Shown here piece after piece: positions 44,306-55,456 of a DNA stretch of 60,165 bases. The notes under the pieces are model-generated. The model did no database searches and was not told the origin of the DNA. It worked only from the letters and a program-made list of their open reading frames with translations. Source of the stretch: a virus (lineage: Duplodnaviria; Caudoviricetes); IMG/VR virus record IMGVR_UViG_3300007775_000011, positions 1-60,165 of that record. One strand, 5' to 3'. Made by a program: the position numbers and the translations under genes. How positions within the stretch are numbered: the stretch's first letter is position 1; each line of letters opens with the position of its first letter.

Positions 44306-45274
44306 TTAAAAAGGAATCTCTTCTTCATCATCTTCTTCAACAGCTTTACACGCATCATAACTAGCCATTGTTAAACCGGGGAAACCAGTATTATAGAAAG
44401 GCTCTTTAAAGGCATCCATTATTACAAAAGCAAGGGGATGATCTTCTTTTAATAAAACAGAATTACAATAATTCAAAACAGCATATCTGACTTTTTCGGG
44501 GTCTTGTCCTTTAAACCGAAAAAGAATATCTCTGATTTTATCCCATCCTTTTGCGTTGATCAATCCATTACAAAGATCAATCACCTGAGATTCCTGTAAT
44601 ATGATTTTGTCAAGAGCTTCTTCTTGTTCTTCAGGGTCAAGATCAATAATCTGATCTAATGCTGTTAAAGCATCCCTGGGATGTCCTTCTGAGCCCTTAA
44701 TAATTTGATTAAGAATATCTTTTCCAACTCTTTTTCTTTCTTTTTTACAAACCTTTTTTAAAAGTTGGAGTAAATCACGTCTTTCTAATACTTCGACTTC
44801 AAAGATAGAACACCGGCTTTTAATAGTACCCAGGATATCTTCCGGGTTGGTTGAACAAAGAAAAAAGAAAGCATGTTCAGGCGGTTCTTCCAATAATTTT
44901 AAAAGAGCATTTTGTGGTTTATTTTTCGGGCTATTTCCACCCTCCCCGAAAAGGTGGAACTCATCAAGAATCCAGCCTTTATTTTTACTTTCCCCCAAAC
45001 TGGATAAATTAGCACTATCAATTATAGCACGGGCATCTTCAATTTTTCGATGATTGGAGCAATTTATTTCTTTCTGATTGAATCCCTGACAATCTAATTC
45101 ATGGGCCATTATTCGAGCCATAGTTGTTTTCCCGCAACCTTTTGGGCCGGTAAATAGAAAACTATGAGGTATTTTGTTTTTATCTCGTTTAATTATACTG
45201 GCTAAACTTTTTACTAATTTTTCATTACCATAAACTTCATACAAGCTTTCAGGCCGGTAATTAAGATGTAACAT
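44306..45274 (-). CDS. dnaX: clamp loader (DNA pol III gamma/tau-like)
   Basis: YRP, GPKGCGKT, DEFH, NALLKLLEEPP, SRC. Confidence 0.9.
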   Translation of the reverse strand: MLHLNYRPESLYEVYGNEKLVKSLASIIKRDKNKIPHSFLFTGPKGCGKTTMARIMAHELDCQGFNQKEINCSNHRKIEDARAIIDSANLSSLGESKNKGWILDEFHLFGEGGNSPKNKPQNALLKLLEEPPEHAFFFLCSTNPEDILGTIKSRCSIFEVEVLERRDLLQLLKKVCKKERKRVGKDILNQIIKGSEGHPRDALTALDQIIDLDPEEQEEALDKIILQESQVIDLCNGLINAKGWDKIRDILFRFKGQDPEKVRYAVLNYCNSVLLKEDHPLAFVIMDAFKEPFYNTGFPGLTMASYDACKAVEEDDEEEIPF

Positions 45275-45275
45275 A

Positions 45276-45671
45276 TTATCTCCCCTTAATTATTTTGTAT
45301 TTAATATTTGAGGCAAAGATAAATTTGCCCTGCTCTATACTTTCCCCTAATCGACACCCTTCACAATCCGGGGAACATCTTTTATAATGAGTATGATATC
45401 TTTTAAATTTATTTCTTTTATTAATGCACCATGATCTGAATTTTTCTTTTGCCTCTTCTTTTGTAATTCCGTAAAATATGGCAGGTTGGGAATTTTTAGC
45501 GGCAAAACATATTCGGGAAAACCTCCATTTATTTTTTATCCTGCAATCAACGACCTTTGTTTTGCCTAAGCATAATCCACATTTCATCATCGGCACCTTC
45601 ACCAAATTCCATGTTAAAATAATCCTCAGCACAAGGAACACAAAACCCATGTGACCACCCAGAAACGCCAA
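45276..45671 (-). CDS. hypothetical Cys-containing protein (start uncertain, likely ~45590)
   Basis: MMKCGLCLGKTKVVDCR...CSPDCEGC. Confidence 0.45.
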   Translation of the reverse strand: MAFLGGHMGFVFLVLRIILTWNLVKVPMMKCGLCLGKTKVVDCRIKNKWRFSRICFAAKNSQPAIFYGITKEEAKEKFRSWCINKRNKFKRYHTHYKRCSPDCEGCRLGESIEQGKFIFASNIKYKIIKGR

Positions 45672-45750
45672 GCCCGTCTTTTACGCCAAGCCATGCCCCA
45701 CACCTGCAGCAAAAAGAGACTATGGCCGGGATGCTCGTTGTGATTATCAT
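45547..45750 (-). CDS. small zinc-finger protein
   Basis: CCRCGAWLG...SHGFCVPC. Confidence 0.6.
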   Translation of the reverse strand: MIITTSIPAIVSFCCRCGAWLGVKDGLGVSGWSHGFCVPCAEDYFNMEFGEGADDEMWIMLRQNKGR

Positions 45751-45758
45751 GTTTTATC

Positions 45759-45796
45759 CTTTAACCGTACACGGTCGGCATAATACTCTGTTAAGT
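45759..45796 (+). other. degenerate terminal attC (right arm)
   Basis: ...GGCATAATACTCT GTTAAGT; R' coincides with the stop of ORF 45791. Confidence 0.4.
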
Positions 45797-46045
45797 AGCA
45801 CGTAGTTTTCTTTCTATCTCTTCCGCACTGTCCCGTTTAAAGTCAATCCATTGGTGGTTCTCACCATTGTTACACTGCATTTCACCATCATCACCATACA
45901 ATCCACTCTTTGAGCAACCGTGATTTAACCACAGCAATTCACGCAACTTCTTCTCGCTACTTAACAAGTCGCTTGAGTTCGACGGCAAACCCGCCGGTTT
46001 GGTTGCTCTTATCAATTCTCCAGTTGCTATTTCTGTTCCTGCCAT
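45791..46045 (-). CDS. cassette ORF, hypothetical
   Basis: AAGGAGG RBS and ATG inside attC 45959-46092; LRELLWLNHGC..LYGDDGEMQC. Confidence 0.75.
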   Translation of the reverse strand: MAGTEIATGELIRATKPAGLPSNSSDLLSSEKKLRELLWLNHGCSKSGLYGDDGEMQCNNGENHQWIDFKRDSAEEIERKLRAT

Positions 46046-46092
46046 TTCATTCCTCCTTAGTTGGGTTTCCGCGTCTCAACTTGGTGTTAAAA
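45959..46092 (+). other. attC site
   Basis: ACTTAAC AAGTC GCTTGAGTTCGAC ... GCGTCTCAAC TTGGT GTTAAAA. Confidence 0.75.
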
Positions 46093-46341
46093 ACCCTCTT
46101 CATAATTGCAATAGTCGCAGGTTGCCTTACAGTTTCTTGGCAATGCCAATGTTTTCTTGCCAGATAATCTCAAAGGGTATTCCCCACAATTAGGGCATAC
46201 CAAATAAGGCTCAACCGGCTTAGTGGTTGCAATAACACGGCTTTTAACAACCGCATCAACCGGACTCGCTACCTCTGGCTTGTCTGGGCAGTTATCACAT
46301 TTTCCGGGAATTTTTACGCAATCTTCACATTCTGTTTTCAT
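46087..46341 (-). CDS. cassette ORF, zinc-ribbon protein
   Basis: CEDC..CDNC, CPNC..CDYC; stop lies in R', start lies inside the next attC. Confidence 0.7.
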   Translation of the reverse strand: MKTECEDCVKIPGKCDNCPDKPEVASPVDAVVKSRVIATTKPVEPYLVCPNCGEYPLRLSGKKTLALPRNCKATCDYCNYEEGF

Positions 46342-46374
46342 TATCTGCTCTCCTGTTATGGCAACACGTTGGTG
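46242..46374 (+). other. attC site
   Basis: TTTTAAC AACC GCATCAACCGGAC ... TCCTGTTATGG CAACAC GTTGGTG; extra base in L''. Confidence 0.75.
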
Positions 46375-46377
46375 CGC

Positions 46378-46608
46378 TTAATAACATGGATATTCACAGG
46401 CGCTCACGCAGTCATCACACCACGGCACCCCGTTACGTGGTACTTTTGCCAATTCTTTCTTGCTAACAAAAACTCCGCATTCGTGGCATTTTTCACGCTT
46501 TTGCACAGAACCAGTAAATTCAGTGGATTCGCTAACCTTGGCGTTTTGGTGGCAGTTATAAGGCGACAAGGTGCATGTGTCGTCATAAATGCAGTCTATA
46601 CATTCCAT
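46378..46608 (-). CDS. cassette ORF, Cys-rich protein
   Basis: MECIDC...CHEC...CDDC; start inside attC 46505-46637. Confidence 0.65.
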   Translation of the reverse strand: MECIDCIYDDTCTLSPYNCHQNAKVSESTEFTGSVQKREKCHECGVFVSKKELAKVPRNGVPWCDDCVSACEYPCY

Positions 46609-46637
46609 TCGCTCACCTTTGATTATGGTCGTTAGCA
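46505..46637 (+). other. attC site
   Basis: ACAGAAC CAGT AAATTCAGTGGAT ... CCTTTGATT ATGGTC GTTAGCA. Confidence 0.65.
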
Positions 46638-46853
46638 AAACGTCATACCAAGTAAAAACTGGAGCCTGTTTTCTAATTTCTCCAAATGCTCACGAGGCAC
46701 AACGCACACTGGCGTTCCATTCTCTATCTCTGCTGCTTCCTGCCACTCCGACAGGTATTTATCAGGCATCCCGCCGTGATCCATGACTATCTTCCCACCT
46801 ATTATTCTTAGCTTGTCTGGGGCAGCATCCCCAAGCTTTCTTATATTTTTCAC
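46632..46853 (-). CDS. cassette ORF, hypothetical
   Basis: GGAGG RBS then GTG at 46853; stop in R'. Confidence 0.65.
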   Translation of the reverse strand: MKNIRKLGDAAPDKLRIIGGKIVMDHGGMPDKYLSEWQEAAEIENGTPVCVVPREHLEKLENRLQFLLGMTFC

Positions 46854-46868
46854 GGCGTACCTCCTGTT

Positions 46869-46958
46869 TGCTAACCAGCGCATTAAATCGACTGGAATAA
46901 TCTTTGGTTATTAAAATCGGCCAGCCCATCGGCCAGCGGTTTATGCTAAACGTTAGCG
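46869..46958 (+). other. attC site
   Basis: TGCTAAC CAGC GCATTAAATCGACTGG ... CCAGCGGTTTATGC TAAAC GTTAGCG; closely similar to 59405-59494. Confidence 0.9.
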
Positions 46959-47222
46959 GTCCATGAATGGGCCGACAATAGTAACGTCAATAGTCCCTAA
47001 ATTCCATCCCCTTCTGTGTCGTATGCGTCTGCCAGGGGAGTAAGACAAAATATACCAAAGGTTTTGCCGTTTGATCTCAATCTTGATGCCCCACTGCATC
47101 CAGTTCGGCATTGCCTGGTTTACGGATTTACGAAGCCGATGGAATCCGCTAACCAGGCGTTGCACTCTGACCCCATGGGGCGTGGGTTCTTTGGTTGTTT
47201 GTTTATTCGGTGTTTCCATCAT
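46953..47222 (-). CDS. cassette ORF, hypothetical
   Basis: AAGGAG RBS and ATG inside attC 47147-47272; stop in R'. Confidence 0.65.
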   Translation of the reverse strand: MMETPNKQTTKEPTPHGVRVQRLVSGFHRLRKSVNQAMPNWMQWGIKIEIKRQNLWYILSYSPGRRIRHRRGWNLGTIDVTIVGPFMDR

Positions 47223-47272
47223 TTCAAATCTCCTTTGTTCACCCATGGGTCAGGTGAACTTAAACGCTCTAT
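47147..47272 (+). other. attC site (R' core mutated GTT>GCT)
   Basis: CGCTAAC CAGGC GTTGCACTCTGACCCCATGGG ... CCCATGGGTCAGGTGAAC TTAAAC GCTCTAT. Confidence 0.75.
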
Positions 47273-47431
47273 TTCCCGTCTAAATTATCCCATATATGGT
47301 CTAAAACCTTATTTCCAAGCTCTGTGTATCTAAGCCAGCCTCGCAATCCGCAGTCTCGCAAAGTCTTGTCTTTCAAAGTCTCAAATTCCTTTTGCTTGTT
47401 ATCCGGCTACCAGTTATGCCGGTCGTTATCT
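47269..47431 (-). pseudogene. truncated cassette: ORF remnant plus attC right half
   Basis: open frame ...LRGWLRYTELGNKVLDHIWDNLDGK* without a clear start; CAGTTATGC CGGTC GTTATCT without a left arm. Confidence 0.5.
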
Positions 47432-47629
47432 TCGACAACCTTTCATGCCAATAACGACTTCAAATTTTTCATGGCAGTTTTCACATTCCACAGTAAAACA
47501 TCCATTGTGTTTCTTGGGCTTCTTGTATCTCGCCCACGTTTCACACTTTTTGCACTGTCTGGGCAATCCTTTCAAAAACCGTTCACATCCAGGCTGAGAA
47601 ATTTCATCAATAAAATCTAAATTTTCCAT
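47426..47629 (-). CDS. cassette ORF, zinc-ribbon protein
   Basis: MENLDF...CKKC...CENC; stop in R'; could start at 47677 inside the attC. Confidence 0.65.
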   Translation of the reverse strand: MENLDFIDEISQPGCERFLKGLPRQCKKCETWARYKKPKKHNGCFTVECENCHEKFEVVIGMKGCRR

Positions 47630-47632
47630 GTC

Positions 47633-47718
47633 AGATAACCATCGCATTAACGCAGACTGGAAGAAAGCTGGCGGCATTGGCTCGTTCAAGGCCCAGCAGC
47701 TCAACAAAAACGTTATAT
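47633..47718 (+). other. attC site
   Basis: AGATAAC CATC GCATTAACGCAGACTGG ... CCAGCAGCTCAAC AAAAAC GTTATAT. Confidence 0.7.
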
Positions 47719-47733
47719 TGCTAAATAAAAATG

Positions 47734-47847
47734 TTGCCATGAAGGGAGTTGAACCCTCATCTGCCACCAGAAAAATCATACAGAATCGAACTGTATCAGC
47801 TTCCCCACCTTTCATGGGGAGGTGTCTGCCAATTTCACCACATGGCA
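47734..47847 (-). ncRNA. tRNA-like RNA occupying a whole cassette
   Basis: acceptor stem TGCCATG/CATGGCA, Leu-type D arm GTGAAATTGGCAGACAC, T arm GAGGGTTCAACTCCCTT; non-canonical anticodon loop and an extra TTCGATT hairpin. Confidence 0.7.
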
Positions 47848-47976
47848 ACATAACAAAAAAATAAAGCGGATTGCTAAAACCGTGGCGGATTTAAGTTATT
47901 GGCTGTGGCGCTACATTTCGGTAACGTCCAAGTTTTATACTAGCAATCCGCAACAGCTTATTATAGGTTGTTATCT
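47848..47976 (+). other. attC site (long, VCR-like layout)
   Basis: ACATAAC AAAA AAATAAAGCGGATTGCTA ... CAGCTTATT ATAGGTT GTTATCT. Confidence 0.75.
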
Positions 47977-48147
47977 TTCCCGTTCACGCATGGCATCCAA
48001 GGCCATGTTTATTAAGCGGGAAATTCCTTTACCTTTTTGCGCCCTGATCCACCTGTTATTAATCCGGCTTATCCTTGCGCCTATTCGTACATGGTCGGTT
48101 GTAGGGCCAACCTTTCGGCCAGCCCCTTTTCTTGCACCGCCTCTCAT
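47971..48147 (-). CDS. small DNA-binding protein (RGG motif + ribbon-helix-helix-like; not in ORF track)
   Basis: MRGGARKGAGRK...VRIGARIS...ISRLINMALD, 58 aa; stop in R'. Confidence 0.75.
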   Translation of the reverse strand: MRGGARKGAGRKVGPTTDHVRIGARISRINNRWIRAQKGKGISRLINMALDAMRERER

Positions 48148-48359
48148 ATGTATTTACCTGTTACAGGAGATACAACATACAAACCGCTTTCACTGTGCAA
48201 ATCATCTTTGATGCTACATATCCCTTCAGCCTCCAAAGTCTCAAAGGCAGCAAATAACTGTTTCTGCCCGGTGTGTATATTAAAACATCTCCCGTTATCC
48301 ATAGCCAAAGAGTTACATATCATCCTCACTGCTTCTATTTGCGCTTGTGCCTTTTTCAT
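48144..48359 (-). CDS. cassette ORF, hypothetical
   Basis: GGAGG RBS; first gene after the cassette promoter; ATGA-coupled to the next gene. Confidence 0.7.
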   Translation of the reverse strand: MKKAQAQIEAVRMICNSLAMDNGRCFNIHTGQKQLFAAFETLEAEGICSIKDDLHSESGLYVVSPVTGKYI

Positions 48360-48373
48360 GGTGTATCCTCCGT

Positions 48374-48429
48374 TTGGCTTTATTGCCCTTTGTTAAATAC
48401 AGAATATCATCATTTTTGATTTTTGTCTA
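48374..48429 (-). promoter_or_regulatory. cassette-borne promoter plus conserved leader
   Basis: TAGACA-17 nt-TATTCT with TGn extension; leader AACAAAGGGCAATAAAGCCAA repeated at 60089-60112. Confidence 0.7.
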
Positions 48430-48463
48430 CCTTTTTTCAATAAATAATTAAAATAAAGTAAAA

Positions 48464-48529
48464 AGATAACAAATAAATTAACGACGACAGGAAACCTGCG
48501 GTTTATCAGCCCTCATTATTGCCGTTATA
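48464..48529 (+). other. attC site (right boundary of array A)
   Basis: AGATAAC AAAT AAATTAACGACGACAGG AAA CCTGCGGTTTAT ... GTTATAT. Confidence 0.6.
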
Positions 48530-48606
48530 TTTTTAAGCTATTCCATCAATGTGGGTTATTGTTTCAACCCACCGGACAGGTATATCACCGGCCCATTCCT
48601 TGTCAT

Positions 48607-50055
48607 TCATCGAATAAAATTATTTGAACAAATAGGACAAGTCCAAATATTTTTCTTTTTATTATGGTACATCCATTCATTTCCGCAATTACAAGGATGA
48701 AAATGAACTTCATCTTTTTCATACCAACTTTTTCCAGCTGGAGAAAATTCTGTTTCAGCGTCAAGTGGTACGATTAACCACGGCCATACTTCACGAATAT
48801 CATGGCACATTATTTTATCAGTAACTTTCATTACATGATTTATTTCAGAGGGCTCAAAATCAAAAACAATAGCATCATGAATCTGTCCTAAGATCTTTGT
48901 TTCCCATTTCTCTTCTATAGATATTTTTTGAATATGAATCAAAGACCAAAGAAGACAATGAAAAGCTGATCCCTGTACAGCATAATTGATAGCTTCATTC
49001 CGGGACATTACTCCCTGATATCTAAAACCTGTAAAACTATCAAAATATCCATTTTCTTGATAGGATTCTACATGATCATTTTTCCATTGATTATAAACTG
49101 GATAGCGGTCTTCCCAAAATTTTCTTTCAACTTTTTGTATATGCTTTTCAAATTTTTTATAGGATCGGATACCGTGTTTTGCTAAATGTTTTTTTAATGG
49201 AACCCCATCTGCTGTTTTAAGATTTAACTGTTCTATTCCTACCCAAAGAGCTTGGGCGCAATTAACATAATAATCACCGTAAAATTGAGGAAAGACAAAC
49301 TTATTTTTACCGCAATATCTTGCATCTTTTGTCCACTCATCCATTTCTAATTTATAGCATTCCATTGCCATATCTCGGTGCATATCTCTTTCCGGGTCGG
49401 TAATATCCTCTATCATAGTGGGATCACGATGATAACAAGCGGCAACTTTTACTTCTATGCCGCCATAATCTTTTTCCCCAAATACTCTTTTATCTGTTCT
49501 TGGTAAAAAAGCTTTTCTTACCATACTTTTTACCCAAGGGATTCTAACCGGGATATTTTGGAAATTAATATTAGATGATGATGAACGAAAAGTGACTACA
49601 GTATGTAAATTAAAAAATGGGTAAAGAAAACCATCAACCTGTTCTCTGAGTATTCCTCCAAGATAGGTACCTTGGATTTTTTCCATTTTTCTTCTTTCTA
49701 ATAATAAATTAAGCCATTCCATATTAAGAGCTTGTAAACTTTCTTCATCAGTGGAACCTTGATCACCGCCAGTTTGTTTTTTTGCTTTTAATTTTAAATG
49801 ATCATAAAGAAGTTCGGATAATTGTTCATTGGAATTATATTTGAATTTACTGCCATATAACTCTTTCCATTTCTGTACTTCTTTATACTCACTTAATTTG
49901 ATTTCAGCTTTTTTGATTTTTTTTGTTAATCTTCGATCTTGTAAATGGCAATGATCTAAATCAATTTTCATTCCATTCAACTGGATCTGAGAAAGAGCCA
50001 ATGCCCCTTCATGAAGCAGCTGATATCCTTTGATGTCAACAGGAGTTATTTGCAT
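48607..50055 (-). CDS. polA: family A DNA polymerase, polymerase domain
   Basis: TFRSSS.NINFQNIP, DYGGIE (motif A), R..GK...F..FYG (motif B), NYAVQGSA, QIHD (motif C). Confidence 0.92.
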   Translation of the reverse strand: MQITPVDIKGYQLLHEGALALSQIQLNGMKIDLDHCHLQDRRLTKKIKKAEIKLSEYKEVQKWKELYGSKFKYNSNEQLSELLYDHLKLKAKKQTGGDQGSTDEESLQALNMEWLNLLLERRKMEKIQGTYLGGILREQVDGFLYPFFNLHTVVTFRSSSSNINFQNIPVRIPWVKSMVRKAFLPRTDKRVFGEKDYGGIEVKVAACYHRDPTMIEDITDPERDMHRDMAMECYKLEMDEWTKDARYCGKNKFVFPQFYGDYYVNCAQALWVGIEQLNLKTADGVPLKKHLAKHGIRSYKKFEKHIQKVERKFWEDRYPVYNQWKNDHVESYQENGYFDSFTGFRYQGVMSRNEAINYAVQGSAFHCLLWSLIHIQKISIEEKWETKILGQIHDAIVFDFEPSEINHVMKVTDKIMCHDIREVWPWLIVPLDAETEFSPAGKSWYEKDEVHFHPCNCGNEWMYHNKKKNIWTCPICSNNFIR

Positions 50056-51281
50056 ATATCAATTCCCAATTTTTTACGTTTTTCCCATTGAACTTCAGCC
50101 AACCGATATTCCAATAAAGAATCCAGAGCATTTCTTTTTAGAACATCTTTCATATTAGCTTCATAAATTCTATTAAAAGAATTAGCGTGCTTTTCCGTCC
50201 CTTTTAAAAATTCCCCGGTTGCGTCTTTAAAATCCATTATTCCAAAATTAACAATACTTTGAAATTCAAGATCATTACACCCACGGCGATTATCTAATGT
50301 ATGAGATCCATACATTGTATCCCATAACCAACCTTCTGGGATTATATTCATAATATGTCTAGTCCACATATCTTCAAATTTCATGTGATGGGCTATTTTT
50401 TTAATATTTGGATTTTTAAGAATCCGGCCCCAAATCCTTTCAACATTTATATCATCAAAAGGAAAGGCAAAAGCATTATCCCTATCAGTTGCTATACTTA
50501 AAGTGACAATATGGTGTCCTTTTGCAATAGGACGTAGACCAGTTGTTTCATAATCAAAAGCAATAGGATTTATAAACCCTCTATTTATTTCTTCCAATTT
50601 GGGCAGTATTTGTTTAGGAGATGTTAAAATTTCAATACAACTTTCAGGGTCTTTCCATTCCGGGAAATCATCTTGGTAATGATCAATAGCATTTTTGAGA
50701 TCCATCTCAAATATAGTTTCAATAACCTGATTCCCGTGCGCGGCTTTTTTTACATAAGCTGGGTGGTACATTGGGAATATCCAACATTTATGATCTTGGT
50801 CAGGTATTTGCCAACCCCTCCAAGAATAAATCCCGGTACCCACAGAAACACGATGGCCGAAACAACTATCAATAGCGATATTACCCAATAAAAATATGGC
50901 CTTTGGTTTGTATTTTTTAATGACTTTTAAAATCCGGTTTCGACAAGCTTGGATTTCTTTTGGTTTTGGATTTCTACTATCAGGTGGGTGACAATTAACG
51001 CTATTGATTTTTATACAATCTCTATCTATATCAATCTTGTTTCTTTTTAATAATCTGCGGAGATATAGACCTGGTTTACCAACTAATTGTTTTCCAAGTT
51101 TATCTTCTTTTTCTCCCGGAGCCTCAGCCCAGATTAATATTTCTTTTTTACCTTCTCCGTGAGGTTTCATTTTCGGAGATTTACAAGACCGATATAGACC
51201 GCAGGAGGCGCATCCAATAGTTTTACCGGATGCCCCCCTGTTTATTCCAACAATTTCGTCTTTACTAAAAAAGCCGGACAT
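50046..51281 (-). CDS. family-4 uracil-DNA glycosylase domain fused to a 3'-5' exonuclease domain (N-terminal part of a split SPO1-type polymerase)
   Basis: CASC..C, EAPG..ED, CHPP..R.P, YHPAY; then DYETTGL, HHMKFE, DTM, NALD. Confidence 0.88.
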   Translation of the reverse strand: MSGFFSKDEIVGINRGASGKTIGCASCGLYRSCKSPKMKPHGEGKKEILIWAEAPGEKEDKLGKQLVGKPGLYLRRLLKRNKIDIDRDCIKINSVNCHPPDSRNPKPKEIQACRNRILKVIKKYKPKAIFLLGNIAIDSCFGHRVSVGTGIYSWRGWQIPDQDHKCWIFPMYHPAYVKKAAHGNQVIETIFEMDLKNAIDHYQDDFPEWKDPESCIEILTSPKQILPKLEEINRGFINPIAFDYETTGLRPIAKGHHIVTLSIATDRDNAFAFPFDDINVERIWGRILKNPNIKKIAHHMKFEDMWTRHIMNIIPEGWLWDTMYGSHTLDNRRGCNDLEFQSIVNFGIMDFKDATGEFLKGTEKHANSFNRIYEANMKDVLKRNALDSLLEYRLAEVQWEKRKKLGIDICK

Positions 51282-52315
51282 CAGTTTTCCTTTGCCATAG
51301 CTACAACGTGTTTGAAGTTATCCTTTTCAAATAATATTGATTTATCTCCAATAATCGCAGTACGAAACATTTTAAGAATTTGGATAAAATTTGAAGGGTT
51401 AATTTTAAAAGTACATTCCCCGGCTTTGGATTTCATTTTAAGGGACTTTTTAAACCACCCATTATCCCCTTTCCCTTCCACTGTTAACTTTTTCTTGTTA
51501 ACAGAAACTATCAATGAATTATTATCTGCCATAATAGTTGCATTATTTATAGCAGATATCAAATCTTTGGGAAATTCAATTTCATCTCCATCTACTTTAA
51601 AAAAACTGGAAATATCTGGATATTTCCCATCGTGCGTTCTACAGCTAAAAATGGTGCCTAAGCGGTTTTTAAAATGGGCCCATCCTTCGGTATGGGAAAT
51701 CTTTACAGGCTTATAAGAAGCTAAATGACGAGCTGAGGAAGCTGGTAAAAGATACCCTTCACTATCAGCTCCTGTTTCTGTGTCCCAAATAGTAGCACGG
51801 GAATTATCACAAGATTGAATAAAATCAGGCTTTACATATAAACATGTAAAAATTGGTTGGGAAGCATCGCCGGAAGCAGAGAAAATACAACTGTTTATAG
51901 CGGTAATAAAATTATCAGGATTAGGGATTTTCTTAAACTTTTTGGGTTGTGACATTTCTTCGATAGGCAAACGAATTTCTTGTTCAAGTCTGATCCCGGC
52001 TTCCCCATCCGATTCTGTAGAGATAGTTAATTCAGAATTATCAATTTCCAGTTCAATTTCTTCGCAAGAAAAACTTTTTAAAATACTGAAAAACTCTCTT
52101 GCTTGAACTGCTGCCTTCATATCTAAAGAACCATCCCCAACAAGTGGGTGTTGTATGGCTATTTCATCATTAAAAGTCATAGCCATATCTTCATTAAATA
52201 CAAAACAGGAAGCTTGCTCAACAAGACTATTTTCAGAAGCAATCCCCGGCTGAAGTATTTGTAAAATATCCAATAATTCTTTTCTATTAATTTTCATTGC
52301 TCCTTCTCCTTGCAT
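51281..52315 (-). CDS. dnaN: DNA polymerase sliding clamp (beta-like)
   Basis: KINRKELL, CDNSR, GKYPD; size. Confidence 0.8.
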   Translation of the reverse strand: MQGEGAMKINRKELLDILQILQPGIASENSLVEQASCFVFNEDMAMTFNDEIAIQHPLVGDGSLDMKAAVQAREFFSILKSFSCEEIELEIDNSELTISTESDGEAGIRLEQEIRLPIEEMSQPKKFKKIPNPDNFITAINSCIFSASGDASQPIFTCLYVKPDFIQSCDNSRATIWDTETGADSEGYLLPASSARHLASYKPVKISHTEGWAHFKNRLGTIFSCRTHDGKYPDISSFFKVDGDEIEFPKDLISAINNATIMADNNSLIVSVNKKKLTVEGKGDNGWFKKSLKMKSKAGECTFKINPSNFIQILKMFRTAIIGDKSILFEKDNFKHVVAMAKEN

Positions 52316-52322
52316 TAAATTA

Positions 52323-53144
52323 TTATTCCCAACTATGTATTTTTTTTATTTCAACAGGATTCATTCTTTTTTTGAAAAAATAAAGAGATTCACTATCAAG
52401 ACAACCCCCATCATTAATCAATCTTGGATCATTTTGAATAAATGGAAAGGTATAAAAACAATATTGGACATATTCAGATAGAAAAGGTTCTGGAGCGCAT
52501 ATACAATAACGAAAATTGATATATTTCCAATTGTAATCCCAAATTACAATAGCTTTTAATTCGTTATTGCAGCATAATCCATAACGATTAAACCCCTTAT
52601 CTAAATAAATAGTTAATGTTTCGGGGTCATATATGACTTCTTCGGAGTTTTTATTTTGCAACCATTTTAAAAAAAGTTCATTAATATCATCACTCATTCT
52701 TTTTGTAACATAATTGCAACAAGGATCATTTAAGTTAACCCAAGTATATAATTTTCCTTTCGGCCATTTTTTGATATTTTTTCTAAAGGTTTTCCATTTA
52801 TTCCCTGAAAGATCCAAAAAGTTTCTTTGATCAAAAATAAATTCATAATCAAGAAATTTAGATATAGGGCCACAAACTCTATATACATTTGGCCAATTAG
52901 GAAAATCGGCCCGTACTCCTTTCATTGGCATATAAGGCCATTTTATATCTGTTCGGAGCGGGGGGAATAAATCAAATTTTTTATCATCAAAAGCATGAAT
53001 ACCGCTATGATTTTGTTCTTCAGTAATTCCGGCTTTTTCAAAATATTCACGACTAATGAAAAAGTTAGGATCAATCTTGGTTTTTTTCAGAGTTTCCAGA
53101 TATAATCCCAAGTGTTGTTCCTTCTGGTTGTTTTTTTGTCCCAC
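52323..53144 (-). CDS. DUF2156/GNAT-fold protein
   Basis: DYEFIF....LDLSGNKWKTFRKNIKKW, INDGG....L..FK.RMNP. Confidence 0.6.
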   Translation of the reverse strand: MGQKNNQKEQHLGLYLETLKKTKIDPNFFISREYFEKAGITEEQNHSGIHAFDDKKFDLFPPLRTDIKWPYMPMKGVRADFPNWPNVYRVCGPISKFLDYEFIFDQRNFLDLSGNKWKTFRKNIKKWPKGKLYTWVNLNDPCCNYVTKRMSDDINELFLKWLQNKNSEEVIYDPETLTIYLDKGFNRYGLCCNNELKAIVIWDYNWKYINFRYCICAPEPFLSEYVQYCFYTFPFIQNDPRLINDGGCLDSESLYFFKKRMNPVEIKKIHSWE

Positions 53145-54310: not shown

Positions 54311-55456
54311 TTATTTTCTTTTGATAAGTTTCATTCCATATTCATCATTGCTTTTTATTGGGGTAATATCAGGTTTTAAAATTGGTTTATTACGTTTAAA
54401 TTTTGAATAATCAACTTGATGGTGCCAACGATTAAATTTAAAAACTATATCAACAACATCAGGATGTTGTTTTTGGAGACTTTTAGCAAATGATTTTCGA
54501 TAATCATTTGTATTGTATACATTATCTGTATTTCCACCTTTTAAGGCTCCTTTAGTTTTTCCACCGTCAAATGTTTTTCCTTTATTCATTAAAAGGACAT
54601 AGAATAATAAAGTACAATATCCATCTTTTAATAATCTGAGACTGAGATCAGTATCTTCATTATATCTTCCCCGCCATCTATGCGGCAGATCAGTCTTTAA
54701 AAGAATACAAGAATAAATTCTGGAATTGAATAAATAAGGAGGGTGATTGGGAGATCGGTCACGGACGAAACCTTGATCATGTGGTCCGGCCATTACTATA
54801 TTTTCATATCTGTCAACAAAATCTTCCATAGCCCGAAAGAAACCACCCCCGGTCACTTTTAATCTTCGGTTATGATTACACCTTGTAAATGTAGTTATAT
54901 TGTCATCAACAGTCCAATGACGTTTAAATCCTCTTTTTTTACACCATTCCCATATATAATTTCGTGCCGGCACTGATCCTCTTCCAAGATCATGAAAAGG
55001 CATAACAACTACTTTATTTTTTCCAAGGTGTTTTATATATTCTTCAGCTTCGGTTTCTTCAACAAAAAATTTATAAGAAACCCCAAGTTGATCCAGTAGT
55101 TTTCCTGTAGTTTGGACATCGGCCCTTCCTTTACTCGGTATACAAACTGGATATTTAGAATCTTCAGGTGGGCCCGTATATTCAAATTTATTTTTTTCAA
55201 GTGGTTTTTGTCCAGGGTACCACGCAGAATCAGTTCTTTTATTAATTCTAATTCCTAATTTTTCGGCAAATTCTTTTACATCTTCTTCAGTCATAAAATT
55301 CATAACTATTCTGCGTTGTGGAGATGCATCTTTCATAACAAATTCAGGCATTCCCCACCACATATCTTTCCAATGTGGCTCGAATAATCCAAAATCAATA
55401 GATTCTTTTTCACGGGTAGGTCGATTTTCGTTTAATTCTTTTTCAAAATTATCCAT
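54311..55456 (-). CDS. TAGT/GREB1-like GT-A glycosyltransferase
   Basis: WWGMPEF N-terminal domain; YPVCIPSKGR, ARNYIW, WTVDDN, WRGRYNEDTDLSLRLL, GGNT, RWHHQVDY. Confidence 0.8.
   Translation of the reverse strand: MDNFEKELNENRPTREKESIDFGLFEPHWKDMWWGMPEFVMKDASPQRRIVMNFMTEEDVKEFAEKLGIRINKRTDSAWYPGQKPLEKNKFEYTGPPEDSKYPVCIPSKGRADVQTTGKLLDQLGVSYKFFVEETEAEEYIKHLGKNKVVVMPFHDLGRGSVPARNYIWEWCKKRGFKRHWTVDDNITTFTRCNHNRRLKVTGGGFFRAMEDFVDRYENIVMAGPHDQGFVRDRSPNHPPYLFNSRIYSCILLKTDLPHRWRGRYNEDTDLSLRLLKDGYCTLLFYVLLMNKGKTFDGGKTKGALKGGNTDNVYNTNDYRKSFAKSLQKQHPDVVDIVFKFNRWHHQVDYSKFKRNKPILKPDITPIKSNDEYGMKLIKRK

What the first reader, a model, noticed from the sequence alone, without database searches (positions are those of the whole stretch)
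47713..47854. A cassette whose cargo is a tRNA-like RNA with no normal anticodon loop and two T-loops
Seen on the - strand: 7-10 bp acceptor stem, tRNA-Leu-like D arm (TGGTGAAATTGGCAGACAC), stem TCCCCA-TGAAAGG-TGGGGA lacking U33, an extra hairpin ATACAG-TTCGATT-CTGTAT resembling a second T arm, a linker, then a T arm GAGGG-TTCAACT-CCCTT. No CCA is encoded. It fills the space between two attC sites almost exactly. Inference: a mobile tRNA mimic, e.g. a decoy for anticodon nucleases or other tRNA-targeting defences, or an RNase P/Z processing signal.
Basis: partly seen in the sequence, partly recalled or inferred. Interest (0 to 1): 0.75.

Follow-up and report, generated by a model that had tools for sequence, protein, structure and literature searches.

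The report
Orphan chimeric tRNA-like gene in phage
A soil phage carries one odd gene that looks like a leucine tRNA whose anticodon arm was replaced by a piece of another tRNA, so it probably cannot read codons; it is not an integron cassette and has no known relatives.

Summary
On the - strand, 47734-47847 folds as a 7-bp acceptor stem (11 bp with flanks, 47731-47851), a leucine-type D arm, three perfect hairpins and a normal T arm. No CCA is encoded.

The context claim is wrong. The window is a 60-kb phage record, and the element lies in a GC-rich island of small genes between the DNA polymerase and clamp-loader genes. I found no attC-type repeats, no excess of GTTRRRY sites and no integrase.

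ARAGORN (default) and Rfam (gathering) do not call it a tRNA. ARAGORN's intron mode does, but it also of 500 versions with a shuffled middle, so that call means nothing.

Comparison with phage tRNAs suggests a chimera. The frame is a tRNA-Leu (acceptor, D arm, variable arm, T arm, A73). Its anticodon arm is replaced by about 49 nt resembling positions 27-72 of a class I tRNA, which supplies the second T arm.

No homologue turned up in viral, metagenome or genome collections, nor in 19 related phage loci. No RNA data exist.

My best reading is a non-decoding tRNA-Leu mimic, possibly chargeable by LeuRS (0.42). A functionless recombination relic is nearly as likely (0.36).

The parts
47731..47851 (-). 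Whole element. It is a 121-nt stretch closed by an 11-bp helix (ATGTTGCCATG / CATGGCAACAT). The tRNA-like core with discriminator is 47734-47847.
   Evidence: Sequence. The MFE fold is a multi-helix junction. CM R1 self-score is 158.9 bits, with no second copy in the window.
47841..47847 (-). Acceptor stem, 5' strand TGCCATG (U1, G2...). It pairs with 47735-47741 (CATGGCA).
   Evidence: The U1-A72 start occurs in 14 of 73 unique phage elements with this type of D arm. All 14 belong to the GUC-loop family; none is a tRNA-Leu.
47822..47838 (-). D arm of class II (leucine) type: a 3-bp stem GTG/CAC and an 11-nt loop AAATTGGCAGA containing A14, A15, G18G19.
   Evidence: The 18-mer is shared with at least 118 viral contigs, 99 of 118 called tRNA-Leu.
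47802..47820 (-). Hairpin 1: TCCCCA-TGAAAGG-TGGGGA, in the place of the anticodon arm. It reads as a 6-bp stem with a 7-nt loop (G at position 33), or as a 5-bp stem with a 9-nt loop AUGAAAGGU.
   Evidence: The 17-mer search found only 2 chance hits, both in coding DNA.
47778..47796 (-). Hairpin 2: ATACAG-TTCGATT-CTGTAT, a second T arm with the G53-T54-T55-C56-R57-A58...C61 pattern. It is preceded by linker AGCTG (47797-47801) and followed by GATTTT (47772-47777).
   Evidence: Its best local alignments fall on the variable-loop and T-arm positions (about 42-66) of class I phage tRNAs. The best score is 32, against mean 15.9 and sd 3.2 over 631 unique tRNAs.
47759..47771 (-). Hairpin 3: TCTG-GTGG-CAGA plus T. 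This is the original leucine-type variable arm, and its last T is placed to be U48.
   Evidence: It is in register with the variable arms of phage tRNA-Leu. For example, L086 reads TGCCTTCGGGCGT|GAGGG where the element reads TCTGGTGGCAGAT|GAGGG.
47742..47758 (-). True T arm GAGGG-TTCAACT-CCCTT, directly joined to the acceptor 3' strand.
   Evidence: The tRNA-Sec model aligns this arm and the acceptor stem.
47734..47734 (-). Discriminator A73. The next bases are CAT and then TTTTATTT, so no CCA is encoded.
   Evidence: A73 is the key leucine identity base in E. coli (PMC9976931, passages read).
47855..47951 (-). Upstream structured spacer: GCGGATTGCTA (47951-47941) ... TAGCAATCCGC (47876-47866) followed by a T-run (47865-47855). 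The 5' arm can also pair with a nearer AATCCGC (47891-47885). This is probably what was read as an attC.
   Evidence: The terminator scan did not call it, because its loop is too long for the scan's rule.
47426..47629 (-). Downstream neighbour: a 67-aa Cys-rich protein gene. The 141-aa ORF that runs from 47851 through the element is most likely not real.
   Evidence: It has 4 homologues of 67, 68, 75 and 67 aa that start at the same Met. Only lengths of 36-118 aa were searched. No Shine-Dalgarno sequence precedes 47851, whereas GGAGG-type sites precede other genes.
45500..48400 (-). GC-rich accessory island (GC 0.42-0.48 against 0.30-0.37 in the flanks). It holds about 11 small ORFs plus the element, between the clamp-loader gene (44306-45274) and the PolA gene (48607-50055).
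   Evidence: In 13 PolA-relative loci where both genes were found, the clamp-loader gene starts about 0.02-2.5 kb after the polymerase gene ends, against 3.3 kb here. Promoter-like sites on the - strand occur only at 48440-48401.

Best explanation
The element is a single-copy tRNA-derived RNA gene of a soil phage. Its frame is a class II leucine-type tRNA: acceptor stem, D arm, short variable arm, T arm and A73. Where the 17-nt anticodon arm should be, it carries about 49 nt that look like positions 27-72 of a class I tRNA. That piece consists of an odd 'anticodon' hairpin, a 5-nt variable loop, a second T arm and an A/U-rich tail.

Shown:
- The anatomy.
- The phage context.
- The lack of any canonical anticodon loop.
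- The lack of homologues.

Inferred, in order:
- It is transcribed with the island's small genes from the promoter-like sites near 48.4 kb.
- It is cut out by RNase P and 3' trimming and given CCA, because the acceptor/T minihelix and the D/T-loop elbow are intact.
- It cannot decode on the ribosome.
- It therefore works as a tRNA mimic off the ribosome.

It carries every element that E. coli LeuRS needs (A73, A15-U48, G18G19, A20a, U54:A58, U8:A14), and LeuRS ignores the anticodon and variable arms. So it may even be leucylated.

The most plausible uses are two. It could soak up a host factor that binds the acceptor end, T arm or elbow of tRNAs, for example a tRNA-directed defence toxin. Or it could serve as an aminoacyl carrier that stays out of translation.
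For: - Every predicted helix is perfect: 31 of 31 pairs in the structure given to the model, plus 4 further pairs that extend the acceptor helix.
- The fold is more stable than shuffles: z -3.74, 0 of 200 as stable.
- The D arm is identical to that of phage tRNA-Leu genes, 99 of 118.
- The variable arm and T arm are in register with those genes.
- Hairpin 2 aligns to real T arms at their native position.
- The leucine identity elements listed in PMC9976931 (passages) are all present in the sequence. The same passages state that tRNA-Leu variants lacking the anticodon arm and variable arm remain chargeable.
- It lies on the coding strand inside a foreign-composition island of small accessory genes downstream of promoter-like sites.
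- The ORF across it is not supported.
- There is precedent for phage tRNAs acting against tRNA-directed defences: bioRxiv 10.1101/2023.03.15.532788 and PMC11455837, of which I saw only the search listing and the start of the abstract.
- There is also precedent for irregular soil tRNAs with 'possible five-stem-junction structures' that are probably not used in translation: PMC5389517, passages.
Against: No homologue exists in anything I could search, so there is no covariation or conservation evidence:
- 0 relatives among 28 unique extended Leu-type elements from 43 viral loci.
- 0 true hits for three other patterns.
- 0 of 16 PolA-relative loci and 0 of 3 loci carrying the neighbouring 67-aa gene hold it. 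CM R1 gave no hit at E<=10 in the 16, and at best 7.5 bits in the 3 with filters off.

Further points against:
- No promoter-like site lies directly upstream, and a hairpin plus T-run sits between it and the upstream genes.
- The middle hairpins are only modestly better than chance: 32 of 1000 shuffles are as stable.
- Perfect helices would also be expected from a recent fusion of two working tRNA genes.
- The leader and trailer pair with each other for 4 extra bp including A73, which is not typical of pre-tRNAs.
- The phage's own tandem-GNAT (DUF2156/FemX-like) protein shows no systematic link to tRNA genes: 3 of 44 loci have any tRNA within 10 kb.
Confidence: 0.42

Rival explanations
1. A functionless relic. 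A recent illegitimate recombination or template switch between two tRNA genes put part of a class I tRNA into a tRNA-Leu gene and killed it. The helices are perfect only because there has been no time to decay.
For: - The middle reads as a contiguous block of another tRNA: anticodon-type hairpin, 5-nt loop, T arm and 6-7-nt tail.
- Other phage contigs show rearranged tRNA genes. L141 has a 5' tRNA fragment fused ahead of a tRNA-Leu, and L149 has a tRNA-Leu followed by a stray T arm.
- The element is an orphan: 0 of 19 related loci carry it and no pattern found a relative.
- The record holds no other tRNA gene.
- No promoter of its own was found.
Against: - The event needed is not a single crossover. 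The 5' and 3' acceptor strands still match perfectly, and the Leu variable arm and T arm are retained in register.
- Hairpin 1's loop is not a legitimate anticodon loop of any tRNA, so at least one further change occurred while all stems stayed intact.
- The closing helix is extended by 4 further Watson-Crick pairs.
- Phage genomes are compact and usually lose dead DNA (general knowledge).
Confidence: 0.36
2. A working decoder. It would be a leucine-accepting tRNA that reads codons through hairpin 1. If the A-U closing pair opens, the 9-nt loop AUGAAAGGU contains U-GAA-A, like a Phe anticodon loop, or a GAG Leu loop with two extra A. Alternatively an insert is removed to give a normal tRNA.
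For: - ARAGORN in intron mode calls tRNA-Lys(ttt) with a 38-nt intron. With lowered thresholds it calls Ser(cga), using hairpin 2 as the anticodon arm.
- Large additions to the variable region can be tolerated by active tRNAs: PMC7590224, search listing and start of abstract only.
- Other phage Leu-type genes carry 30-50-nt inserts around the anticodon arm, for example L147/L150/L168.
Against: - The intron call is an artefact of the mode: 477 of 500 constructs with a shuffled middle are also called, against 4 of 500 in default mode.
- That call also needs a mismatched stem, has U37, and uses up the Leu variable arm.
- The Ser(cga) call has a mismatched acceptor stem.
- No outer anticodon stem flanks the insert, unlike L150.
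- G33 or a 9-nt loop, and U37, are outside the canonical pattern (recalled tRNA consensus).
- No bacterial enzyme is known to remove short tRNA inserts (recalled).
Confidence: 0.1
3. A dedicated aminoacyl donor. The leucylated mimic would feed the phage's own DUF2156/FemX-like transferase (52323-53144), keeping that reaction separate from translation.
For: - The 273-aa protein models at pLDDT 91.8. Its best structural matches are aminoacyl-tRNA-dependent transferases: DUF2156 2hqy, the MprF C domain, Sbb17/Sba18 and FemX, with Foldseek E from 9e-8 to 2e-4.
- 26 of 47 family members hit PF09924.
- LeuRS charges without reading the anticodon.
Against: - The protein family sits directly before the sliding-clamp gene in 44 of 44 viral loci, and only 3 of those 44 loci have any tRNA within 10 kb.
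- None of the 44 holds an element like this one. The only R1 hit is an ordinary tRNA-Leu in L219, at 42.4 bits.
- In this phage the gene lies 4.5 kb away, outside the island.
- TM-scores are moderate (0.5-0.66), and the activity is only inferred from the fold.
Confidence: 0.05
4. An integron gene cassette bounded by attC sites.
For: Small ORFs lie in a row, and inverted repeats flank the element.
Against: - It is a phage record with terminase, primase, helicase, PolA, clamp, clamp loader, RecA-like and SbcCD-like genes.
- There is no tyrosine recombinase.
- GTTRRRY is not enriched: 89 against 113.6 expected.
- No shared repeat family occurs between the ORFs.
Confidence: 0.01

Closest known systems
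Phage-encoded class II tRNA-Leu genes
   Same: The D arm is identical (18-mer). The variable arm and T arm are in register, A73 is present, no CCA is encoded as in many of them, and all tertiary-pair nucleotides are kept.
   Different: There is no Leu anticodon arm. About 49 nt of foreign tRNA-like sequence with a second T arm sits in its place. It starts U1-A72, where 54 of the 59 non-GUC elements start with G and none with T. The core is 114 nt, against 81-87 nt for ordinary ones. ARAGORN default and Rfam gathering do not call it.
Irregular / allo-tRNAs of soil bacteria (Mukai et al., PMC5389517; review PMC7609411)
   Same: They come from soil and have extra arms. The paper mentions 'five-stem-junction structures' and an extra loop, anticodons that do not fit the body, and members suspected of not working in translation (passages).
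   Different: Allo-tRNAs have 8/4 or 9/3 acceptor/T branches and a long D stem with a tetraloop. This element is 7/5 with a 3-bp D stem and an 11-nt loop, and its extra arms lie in the variable region. The supplementary figures with those structures could not be seen.
Phage tRNAs that counter tRNA-directed defences (T5 tRNA-Tyr against retron Ec78; PARIS)
   Same: Each is a phage-borne tRNA gene carried as an accessory trait, and the island context is similar (listing and abstract only).
   Different: Those are working tRNAs that replace a cleaved host tRNA. This element has no usable anticodon loop, so it could act only as a sponge. No defence target is known for it.
Other extended Leu-type tRNA-like genes in phage contigs
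   Same: They share the Leu-type D arm, a closed acceptor stem and 30-55 extra nt between the D arm and T arm. The GUC-loop family also shares U1-A72 and G2-C71.
   Different: None shares the middle hairpins. The GUC family has G73 and a recognisable 7-nt loop. L147/L150/L168 keep an intact anticodon stem around their insert.
Integron gene cassette / attC
   Same: Only a superficial likeness: a short unit between inverted repeats within a row of small ORFs.
   Different: There are no attC core sites, no integrase, and the genome is a phage.

Membership tests
Canonical bacterial/phage tRNA | Recognised by standard detectors (ARAGORN default; Rfam tRNA clan at gathering score) | tested here: not met
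   ARAGORN found 0 genes in the window. Rfam found 0 matches at gathering. The best permissive hit was tRNA-Sec at 14.4 bits, E 4.8, against a gathering score of 47.
Canonical bacterial/phage tRNA | 7-bp acceptor stem, D arm with A14/G18G19, and T arm with the GTTCRANNC loop joined directly to the acceptor 3' strand | tested here: met
   Sequence and folds.
Canonical bacterial/phage tRNA | 5-bp anticodon stem with a 7-nt loop, U33 and a purine at 37 (consensus recalled) | tested here: not met
   Hairpin 1's loop is UGAAAGG (G33), or a 9-nt loop. Hairpin 2's loop is UUCGAUU (U37, and T-loop-like).
Intron-containing tRNA | A specific call in intron mode, with an intact anticodon stem around the insert | tested here: not met
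   ARAGORN -i calls Lys(ttt) with a 38-nt intron. It also of 500 middle-shuffled constructs. The proposed stem has a mismatch and consumes the variable arm.
Class II tRNA-Leu | Leu-type D arm, short hairpin variable arm before the T stem, and A73 | tested here: met
   The identity elements are those listed in PMC9976931.
Class II tRNA-Leu | An anticodon for a leucine codon (NAG or YAA) | tested here: not met
   No such triplet sits in a canonical loop position.
Class II tRNA-Leu | Charged by LeuRS | not testable with these tools
   Needs an in vitro leucylation assay.
Integron gene cassette | attC sites with R''/R' cores (RYYYAAC / GTTRRRY; consensus recalled) at the cassette ends, repeated along an array | tested here: not met
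   GTTRRRY occurs 89 times against 113.6 expected. There is no flanking repeat family. The 5' junction reads GTTATGT, which does not fit the consensus.
Integron gene cassette | Integron integrase (tyrosine recombinase) and a bacterial or plasmid context | tested here: not met
   PF00589 gave 0 matches in the record, while the control genomes gave 14 of 14. It is a virus record, 87% complete.
Allo-tRNA (8/4 or 9/3) | A 12-bp acceptor/T branch split 8/4 or 9/3, and a long D stem with a tetraloop (PMC5389517 passages) | tested here: not met
   The branch is 7/5, with a 3-bp D stem and an 11-nt loop.
Known tRNA-like RNAs in Rfam (tmRNA, mascRNA, Y RNA and others) | A match to the family's covariance model | tested here: not met
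   None at gathering. mascRNA scored 15.1 bits, E 2.5, against a gathering score of 42.5. ARAGORN's tmRNA mode found nothing.

The most novel reading that the evidence does not exclude
A phage has built a leucylatable but non-decoding tRNA mimic by grafting a second T arm and a dummy anticodon hairpin onto a tRNA-Leu frame. It uses the mimic off the ribosome in one of two ways. It could be a sponge for a host defence factor that attacks the acceptor end, T arm or elbow of tRNAs. Or it could be a private aminoacyl donor for the phage's own DUF2156/FemX-like transferase. Leu-type and Ser-type bodies are the natural choice for such carriers, because their synthetases ignore the anticodon. The same logic may explain the wider set of odd class II tRNA-like genes seen in phage contigs.
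Probability: 0.12. Interest if true: 0.75.

Novelty: new variant of a known kind. Interest (0 to 1): 0.35.

Why it matters
If the RNA is made and processed, it would be a natural example of a virus re-engineering a tRNA frame into something that the tRNA-handling enzymes still accept but the ribosome cannot use. That bears on three topics: phage counter-defence against tRNA-directed toxins, non-translational uses of aminoacyl-tRNA, and how standard tRNA finders miss irregular tRNA genes.

If it is a relic, it is a clean snapshot of how tRNA genes recombine in phage accessory regions.

Either way, the integron reading should be dropped. As a single orphan without expression data, its present weight is modest.

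Tried and rejected
- Integron/attC reading: rejected.
- Coding reading (141-aa ORF 47426-47851): rejected as unlikely. Longer homologues were not searched for.
- Intron-containing tRNA-Lys: rejected after the shuffle control.

Homologue hunts that led nowhere:
- The D-arm 18-mer found only ordinary tRNA-Leu genes and other odd forms.
- D-arm...T-loop with a 55-85-nt gap in viral contigs gave 43 loci and 28 unique sequences, none alike in the middle.
- The hairpin-1 17-mer gave 2 chance hits in coding DNA.
- A tighter D...T pattern in metagenome contigs gave 2 hits, both the tRNA cluster of an unrelated phage. The same pattern in genome contigs gave 0.
- A hairpin-2...hairpin-3 pattern gave 0 in viral contigs and 2 chance hits in Acidobacteriota coding DNA.
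- blastn of the element against all loci matched only the D arm.
- CM R1 found nothing in 16 PolA-relative loci or in 3 loci with the 67-aa neighbour, filters off. In 44 loci with the 273-aa gene it found only an ordinary tRNA-Leu.

Other searches:
- Phage GenBank blastn of 46500-49000: no match.
- Sequencing runs: no RNA holder listed. There are two soil DNA runs. One is the probable source, and the other holds identical fragments that cover 47593-47743, i.e. only the 3' edge of the element.
- Small ORFs of the island: no significant Pfam or PHROG hit.
- Tet_JBP is not found in the record.
- Literature searches for a phage tRNA-like decoy, phage tRNAs with odd variable arms, allo-tRNA in phages, and DUF2156 in phages found no description of such an element.

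Tools and files that were unavailable:
- Supplementary figures S5/S6 of PMC5389517 (five-stem-junction tRNAs) could not be seen and may bear on the comparison.
Full report
**What is there**

All coordinates below are on the - strand.

| Feature | Sequence | Window coordinates |
|---|---|---|
| Acceptor stem (7 bp) | TGCCATG / CATGGCA | 47847-47841 / 47741-47735 |
| U8, G9 | TG | 47840-47839 |
| D arm (3-bp stem, 11-nt loop) | GTG-AAATTGGCAGA-CAC | 47838-47822 |
| Unpaired base | C | 47821 |
| Hairpin 1 | TCCCCA-TGAAAGG-TGGGGA | 47820-47802 |
| Linker | AGCTG | 47801-47797 |
| Hairpin 2 | ATACAG-TTCGATT-CTGTAT | 47796-47778 |
| Linker | GATTTT | 47777-47772 |
| Hairpin 3 | TCTG-GTGG-CAGA | 47771-47760 |
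| Unpaired base | T | 47759 |
| T arm | GAGGG-TTCAACT-CCCTT | 47758-47742 |
| Discriminator | A | 47734 |

After the discriminator comes CAT and then TTTTATTT, so no CCA is encoded. Leader and trailer pair for four more base pairs, which gives an 11-bp closing helix over 47851-47731.

The minimum-free-energy fold reproduces exactly these helices:
- The 142-nt stretch folds at -46.7 kcal/mol, z -3.74, with 0 of 200 shuffles as stable.
- The 115-nt core gives z -2.22, with 6 of 200 shuffles as stable.
- The + strand folds less well and lacks tRNA loop motifs.

What it called a 'linker' contains a third small hairpin.

**Is it a tRNA by the usual tests?**

No. ARAGORN finds no tRNA or tmRNA in the whole window, and Rfam finds nothing at gathering thresholds. 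In permissive mode on 47600-48000 the best hits are far below threshold: tRNA-Sec at 14.4 bits (E 4.8) and mascRNA at 15.1 bits.

With lowered thresholds it calls tRNA-Ser(cga) with a mismatched acceptor stem. I tested the intron call with a control. I kept the acceptor, D and T arms and dinucleotide-shuffled the middle 63 nt. ARAGORN -i then called a tRNA in 477 of 500 constructs, against 4 of 500 in default mode. The intron call therefore carries no information.

**Context**

The window is an IMG/VR virus record of 60,165 bases, linear and estimated 87% complete. It encodes the following:
- a large terminase;
- a primase-like protein, an SNF2 helicase and a DUF932 protein;
- an SbcCD-like pair, a RecA-like protein, a UvsY-like protein and a RuvC-like resolvase;
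- a clamp loader (44306-45274);
- a family A DNA polymerase (48607-50055);
- a UDG/3'-5' exonuclease fusion (50046-51281);
- a beta-clamp (51281-52315);
- a TET-associated glycosyltransferase (54311-55456);
- a DnaB-like protein.

There is no tyrosine recombinase (the control genomes gave 14 of 14). GTTRRRY, the attC core as I recall it, occurs 89 times against 113.6 expected. No repeat family lies between the small ORFs. The integron reading fails.

What flanks the element is different. Upstream there is an 11-nt inverted repeat with a roughly 64-nt interior, followed by a T-run (47951-47855). Its 5' arm has a second possible partner. Downstream there is a weak hairpin with a T-rich run.

The element lies in a 2.9-kb island (about 45.5-48.4 kb) of GC 0.42-0.48, set in flanks of 0.30-0.37. 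In 13 related loci where both genes were found, the clamp-loader gene starts about 0.02-2.5 kb after the polymerase gene ends. Here the gap is 3.3 kb and holds about 11 small, often Cys-rich ORFs without family matches. The only sigma-70-like sites on the - strand of 47300-48500 are at 48440-48401, upstream of the island's first ORF.

The 141-aa ORF that runs through the element is not credible. Its C-terminal 67 aa have four homologues of 67-75 aa that begin at the same Met (only lengths of 36-118 aa were searched). No Shine-Dalgarno sequence precedes 47851, whereas GGAGG-type sites precede other genes.

**Where the parts come from**

ARAGORN of those 118 tRNA-Leu, 1 tRNA-Asp(gtc) and 18 nothing.

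Laid beside these tRNA-Leu genes, hairpin 3 plus 'AT' plus the T stem is in exact register with the Leu variable arm. The element reads TCTGGTGGCAGAT|GAGGG where L086 reads TGCCTTCGGGCGT|GAGGG. Hairpin 3 is therefore the ancestral variable arm.

I aligned the stretch from hairpin 1 to GATTTT against 631 unique tRNAs from 176 loci. The best matches score 32, against a mean of 15.9 and sd 3.2. They fall on the variable loop and T arm (positions about 42-66) of class I tRNAs such as tRNA-Gly(tcc). Only hairpin 2 and its flanks align; hairpin 1 does not.

Read together, hairpin 1, the 5-nt linker, hairpin 2 and the 6-nt tail have the layout of positions 27-72 of a class I tRNA. This block sits where the 17-nt anticodon arm of a tRNA-Leu should be. 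That origin is my inference from layout and partial alignment. It is not proven.

The element starts with U1-A72 and G2-C71. Among 73 unique phage elements with this type of D arm and a closed acceptor stem, 14 start with T, and all 14 belong to a separate family with a GUC-type loop and G73. The other 59 do not start with T (54 start with G). The frame may thus be closer to that odd family than to ordinary tRNA-Leu, although the discriminator is A as in Leu.

**Relatives**

I found none.
- Four different patterns over viral contigs returned either ordinary tRNA-Leu genes, unrelated extended forms, or chance matches in coding DNA. So did one pattern over metagenome contigs and two over one-genome-per-species contigs.
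- A covariance model built on the element alone scores 158.9 bits on itself. It scores 42.4 bits on an ordinary tRNA-Leu in L219, which shows it can see the class II core.
- That model finds nothing at E<=10 in 16 loci around related polymerases. With filters off, it finds nothing better than 7.5 bits in 3 loci that carry the neighbouring 67-aa gene. In L178 the DNA upstream of that gene reads as part of another protein-coding gene (by my reading).

Two soil DNA runs hold the sequence. One is the probable source, and the other holds identical fragments. No RNA run was listed. There is thus no covariation, no conservation and no expression evidence.

**How it most likely works**

The 'top half' of a tRNA is intact: the acceptor/T minihelix and the D-loop/T-loop elbow. 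By established knowledge, which I recall rather than tested, these are the parts read by RNase P, the 3'-end trimming enzymes and the CCA-adding enzyme.

[quoted passage not shown] - A15-U48, G18G19, A20a, G18:U55, G19-C56 and U54:A58 matter.
- Variants lacking the anticodon arm and the variable arm remain chargeable.

Every one of these elements is present in the sequence. Neither candidate anticodon loop is canonical: UGAAAGG has G33, or forms a 9-nt loop if the A-U pair opens, and UUCGAUU is a T-loop with U37.

My best reading (0.42) is therefore a processed, possibly leucylated, non-decoding tRNA mimic that acts off the ribosome. It could be a sponge for something that binds the acceptor end, T arm or elbow, or an aminoacyl carrier. 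A decoy for anticodon nucleases specifically seems less likely, because no natural anticodon loop is imitated.

Almost as likely (0.36) is a recent recombination product with no function. Its helices would be perfect only because both parents were working tRNAs. Rearranged tRNA genes do occur in other phage contigs (L141, L149).

The arguments against the relic are these:
- The acceptor strands remain matched.
- The Leu variable arm and T arm are kept in register.
- The closing helix is extended.
- All stems are intact even though the loop of hairpin 1 is not a legitimate anticodon loop.

The arguments against function are these:
- The element is an orphan.
- It has no promoter of its own.
- The stability of the middle is modest: 32 of 1000 shuffles are as stable.

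**A lead that I followed and mostly discounted**

The 273-aa ORF at 52323-53144 gave a weak Pfam hit to the aminoacyl-tRNA-dependent domain of MprF (E 0.02).
- It belongs to a family of 286 representative clusters.
- 26 of 47 aligned members hit PF09924.
- The AlphaFold model is confident (pLDDT 91.8).
- Its best structural matches are DUF2156, MprF C domains, the aminoacyl-tRNA-dependent peptide synthases Sbb17/Sba18, and FemX.

So a phage enzyme that may use aminoacyl-tRNA sits beside an uncodable Leu-type tRNA mimic, which is suggestive. However, the gene lies directly before the clamp gene in 44 of 44 viral loci. Only 3 of those 44 have any tRNA within 10 kb, and none has an element like this one. 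I give this link 0.05.

**Comparison with the known**

The element works like, and derives from, a class II tRNA-Leu. It fails the tests for a canonical tRNA and for a tRNA-Leu in the anticodon arm.

It recalls the irregular soil tRNAs and allo-tRNAs with extra arms, which may not serve translation (PMC5389517 and PMC7609411, passages). It lacks their 8/4 or 9/3 branch and their D arm.

Phage tRNAs are known to counter tRNA-directed defences (listing and abstract only), but those are working tRNAs.

My searches of the paper library found no description of a phage tRNA-like gene with two T arms. That library lacks most subscription journals.

**Verdict**

- The object is a new variant of a known kind (irregular tRNA-derived genes of phages).
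- It is a single orphan without expression data, and whether it functions is open.
- Interest: 0.35.

Noticed in passing
Loci L008, L035, L037, L077, L091, L094, L105, L157, L161, L163, L164, L165, L169, L170 (viral contigs): This is a family of class-II-shaped tRNA genes in phages. They have U1-A72, G2-C71, G73, a Leu-type D arm, an anticodon loop YUGUCUC or CUGUCAC (GUC), and 40-55-nt variable arms. They make up 14 of 73 unique closed-acceptor elements with this type of D arm. ARAGORN called one such element tRNA-Asp (L037), and at least six of the 14 listed loci gave no call. They carry the determinants that I recall for E. coli AspRS (G73, G2-C71, G10, GUC, C38), but most have U37.
   Followed up: partly
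L147, L150, L168 (viral contigs): These are tRNA-Leu(UAA)-like genes with an insert of about 46 nt inside the anticodon loop, between intact stem halves AAAGGA/TCCTTT. The insert is too short for a group I intron. Other extended Leu-type forms with odd anticodon regions also turned up (L137, L140, L159, L160/L166, L167).
   Followed up: no
window 52323-53144 (-): A 273-aa protein has a confident tandem-GNAT model whose best matches are aminoacyl-tRNA-dependent transferases (DUF2156 2hqy, MprF C domain, Sbb17/Sba18, FemX). It belongs to a family of 286 representative clusters with no Pfam family of its own. In 44 of 44 viral loci it sits directly upstream of the sliding-clamp and polymerase genes. 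A paper search for DUF2156 together with phage found one paper, which I did not read.
   Followed up: partly
window 54311-55456 (-): A TET-associated glycosyltransferase (PF20691, E 5e-40) points to hypermodified DNA. No Tet_JBP domain is found in the 87%-complete record.
   Followed up: partly
window 45500-48400: This is a GC-rich island (0.42-0.48 against 0.30-0.37) of about 11 small ORFs between the clamp-loader and polymerase genes. Several are Cys-rich and zinc-ribbon-like, and none has a family match. The 67-aa member has homologues in phage contigs of GC 0.52-0.55 (L178-L180).
   Followed up: partly
window 47855-47951 (-): This structured spacer lies upstream of the element. The arm GCGGATT(GCTA) can pair either with a near AATCCGC or with a far TAGCAATCCGC that is followed by a T-run. 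That arrangement resembles a terminator/antiterminator choice. It has no Rfam match.
   Followed up: no
L141, L149 (viral contigs): These are rearranged tRNA genes. In L141 a 5' fragment (acceptor plus D arm) is fused ahead of a complete tRNA-Leu. In L149 a complete tRNA-Leu is followed by a stray T arm and 3' fragment.
   Followed up: no
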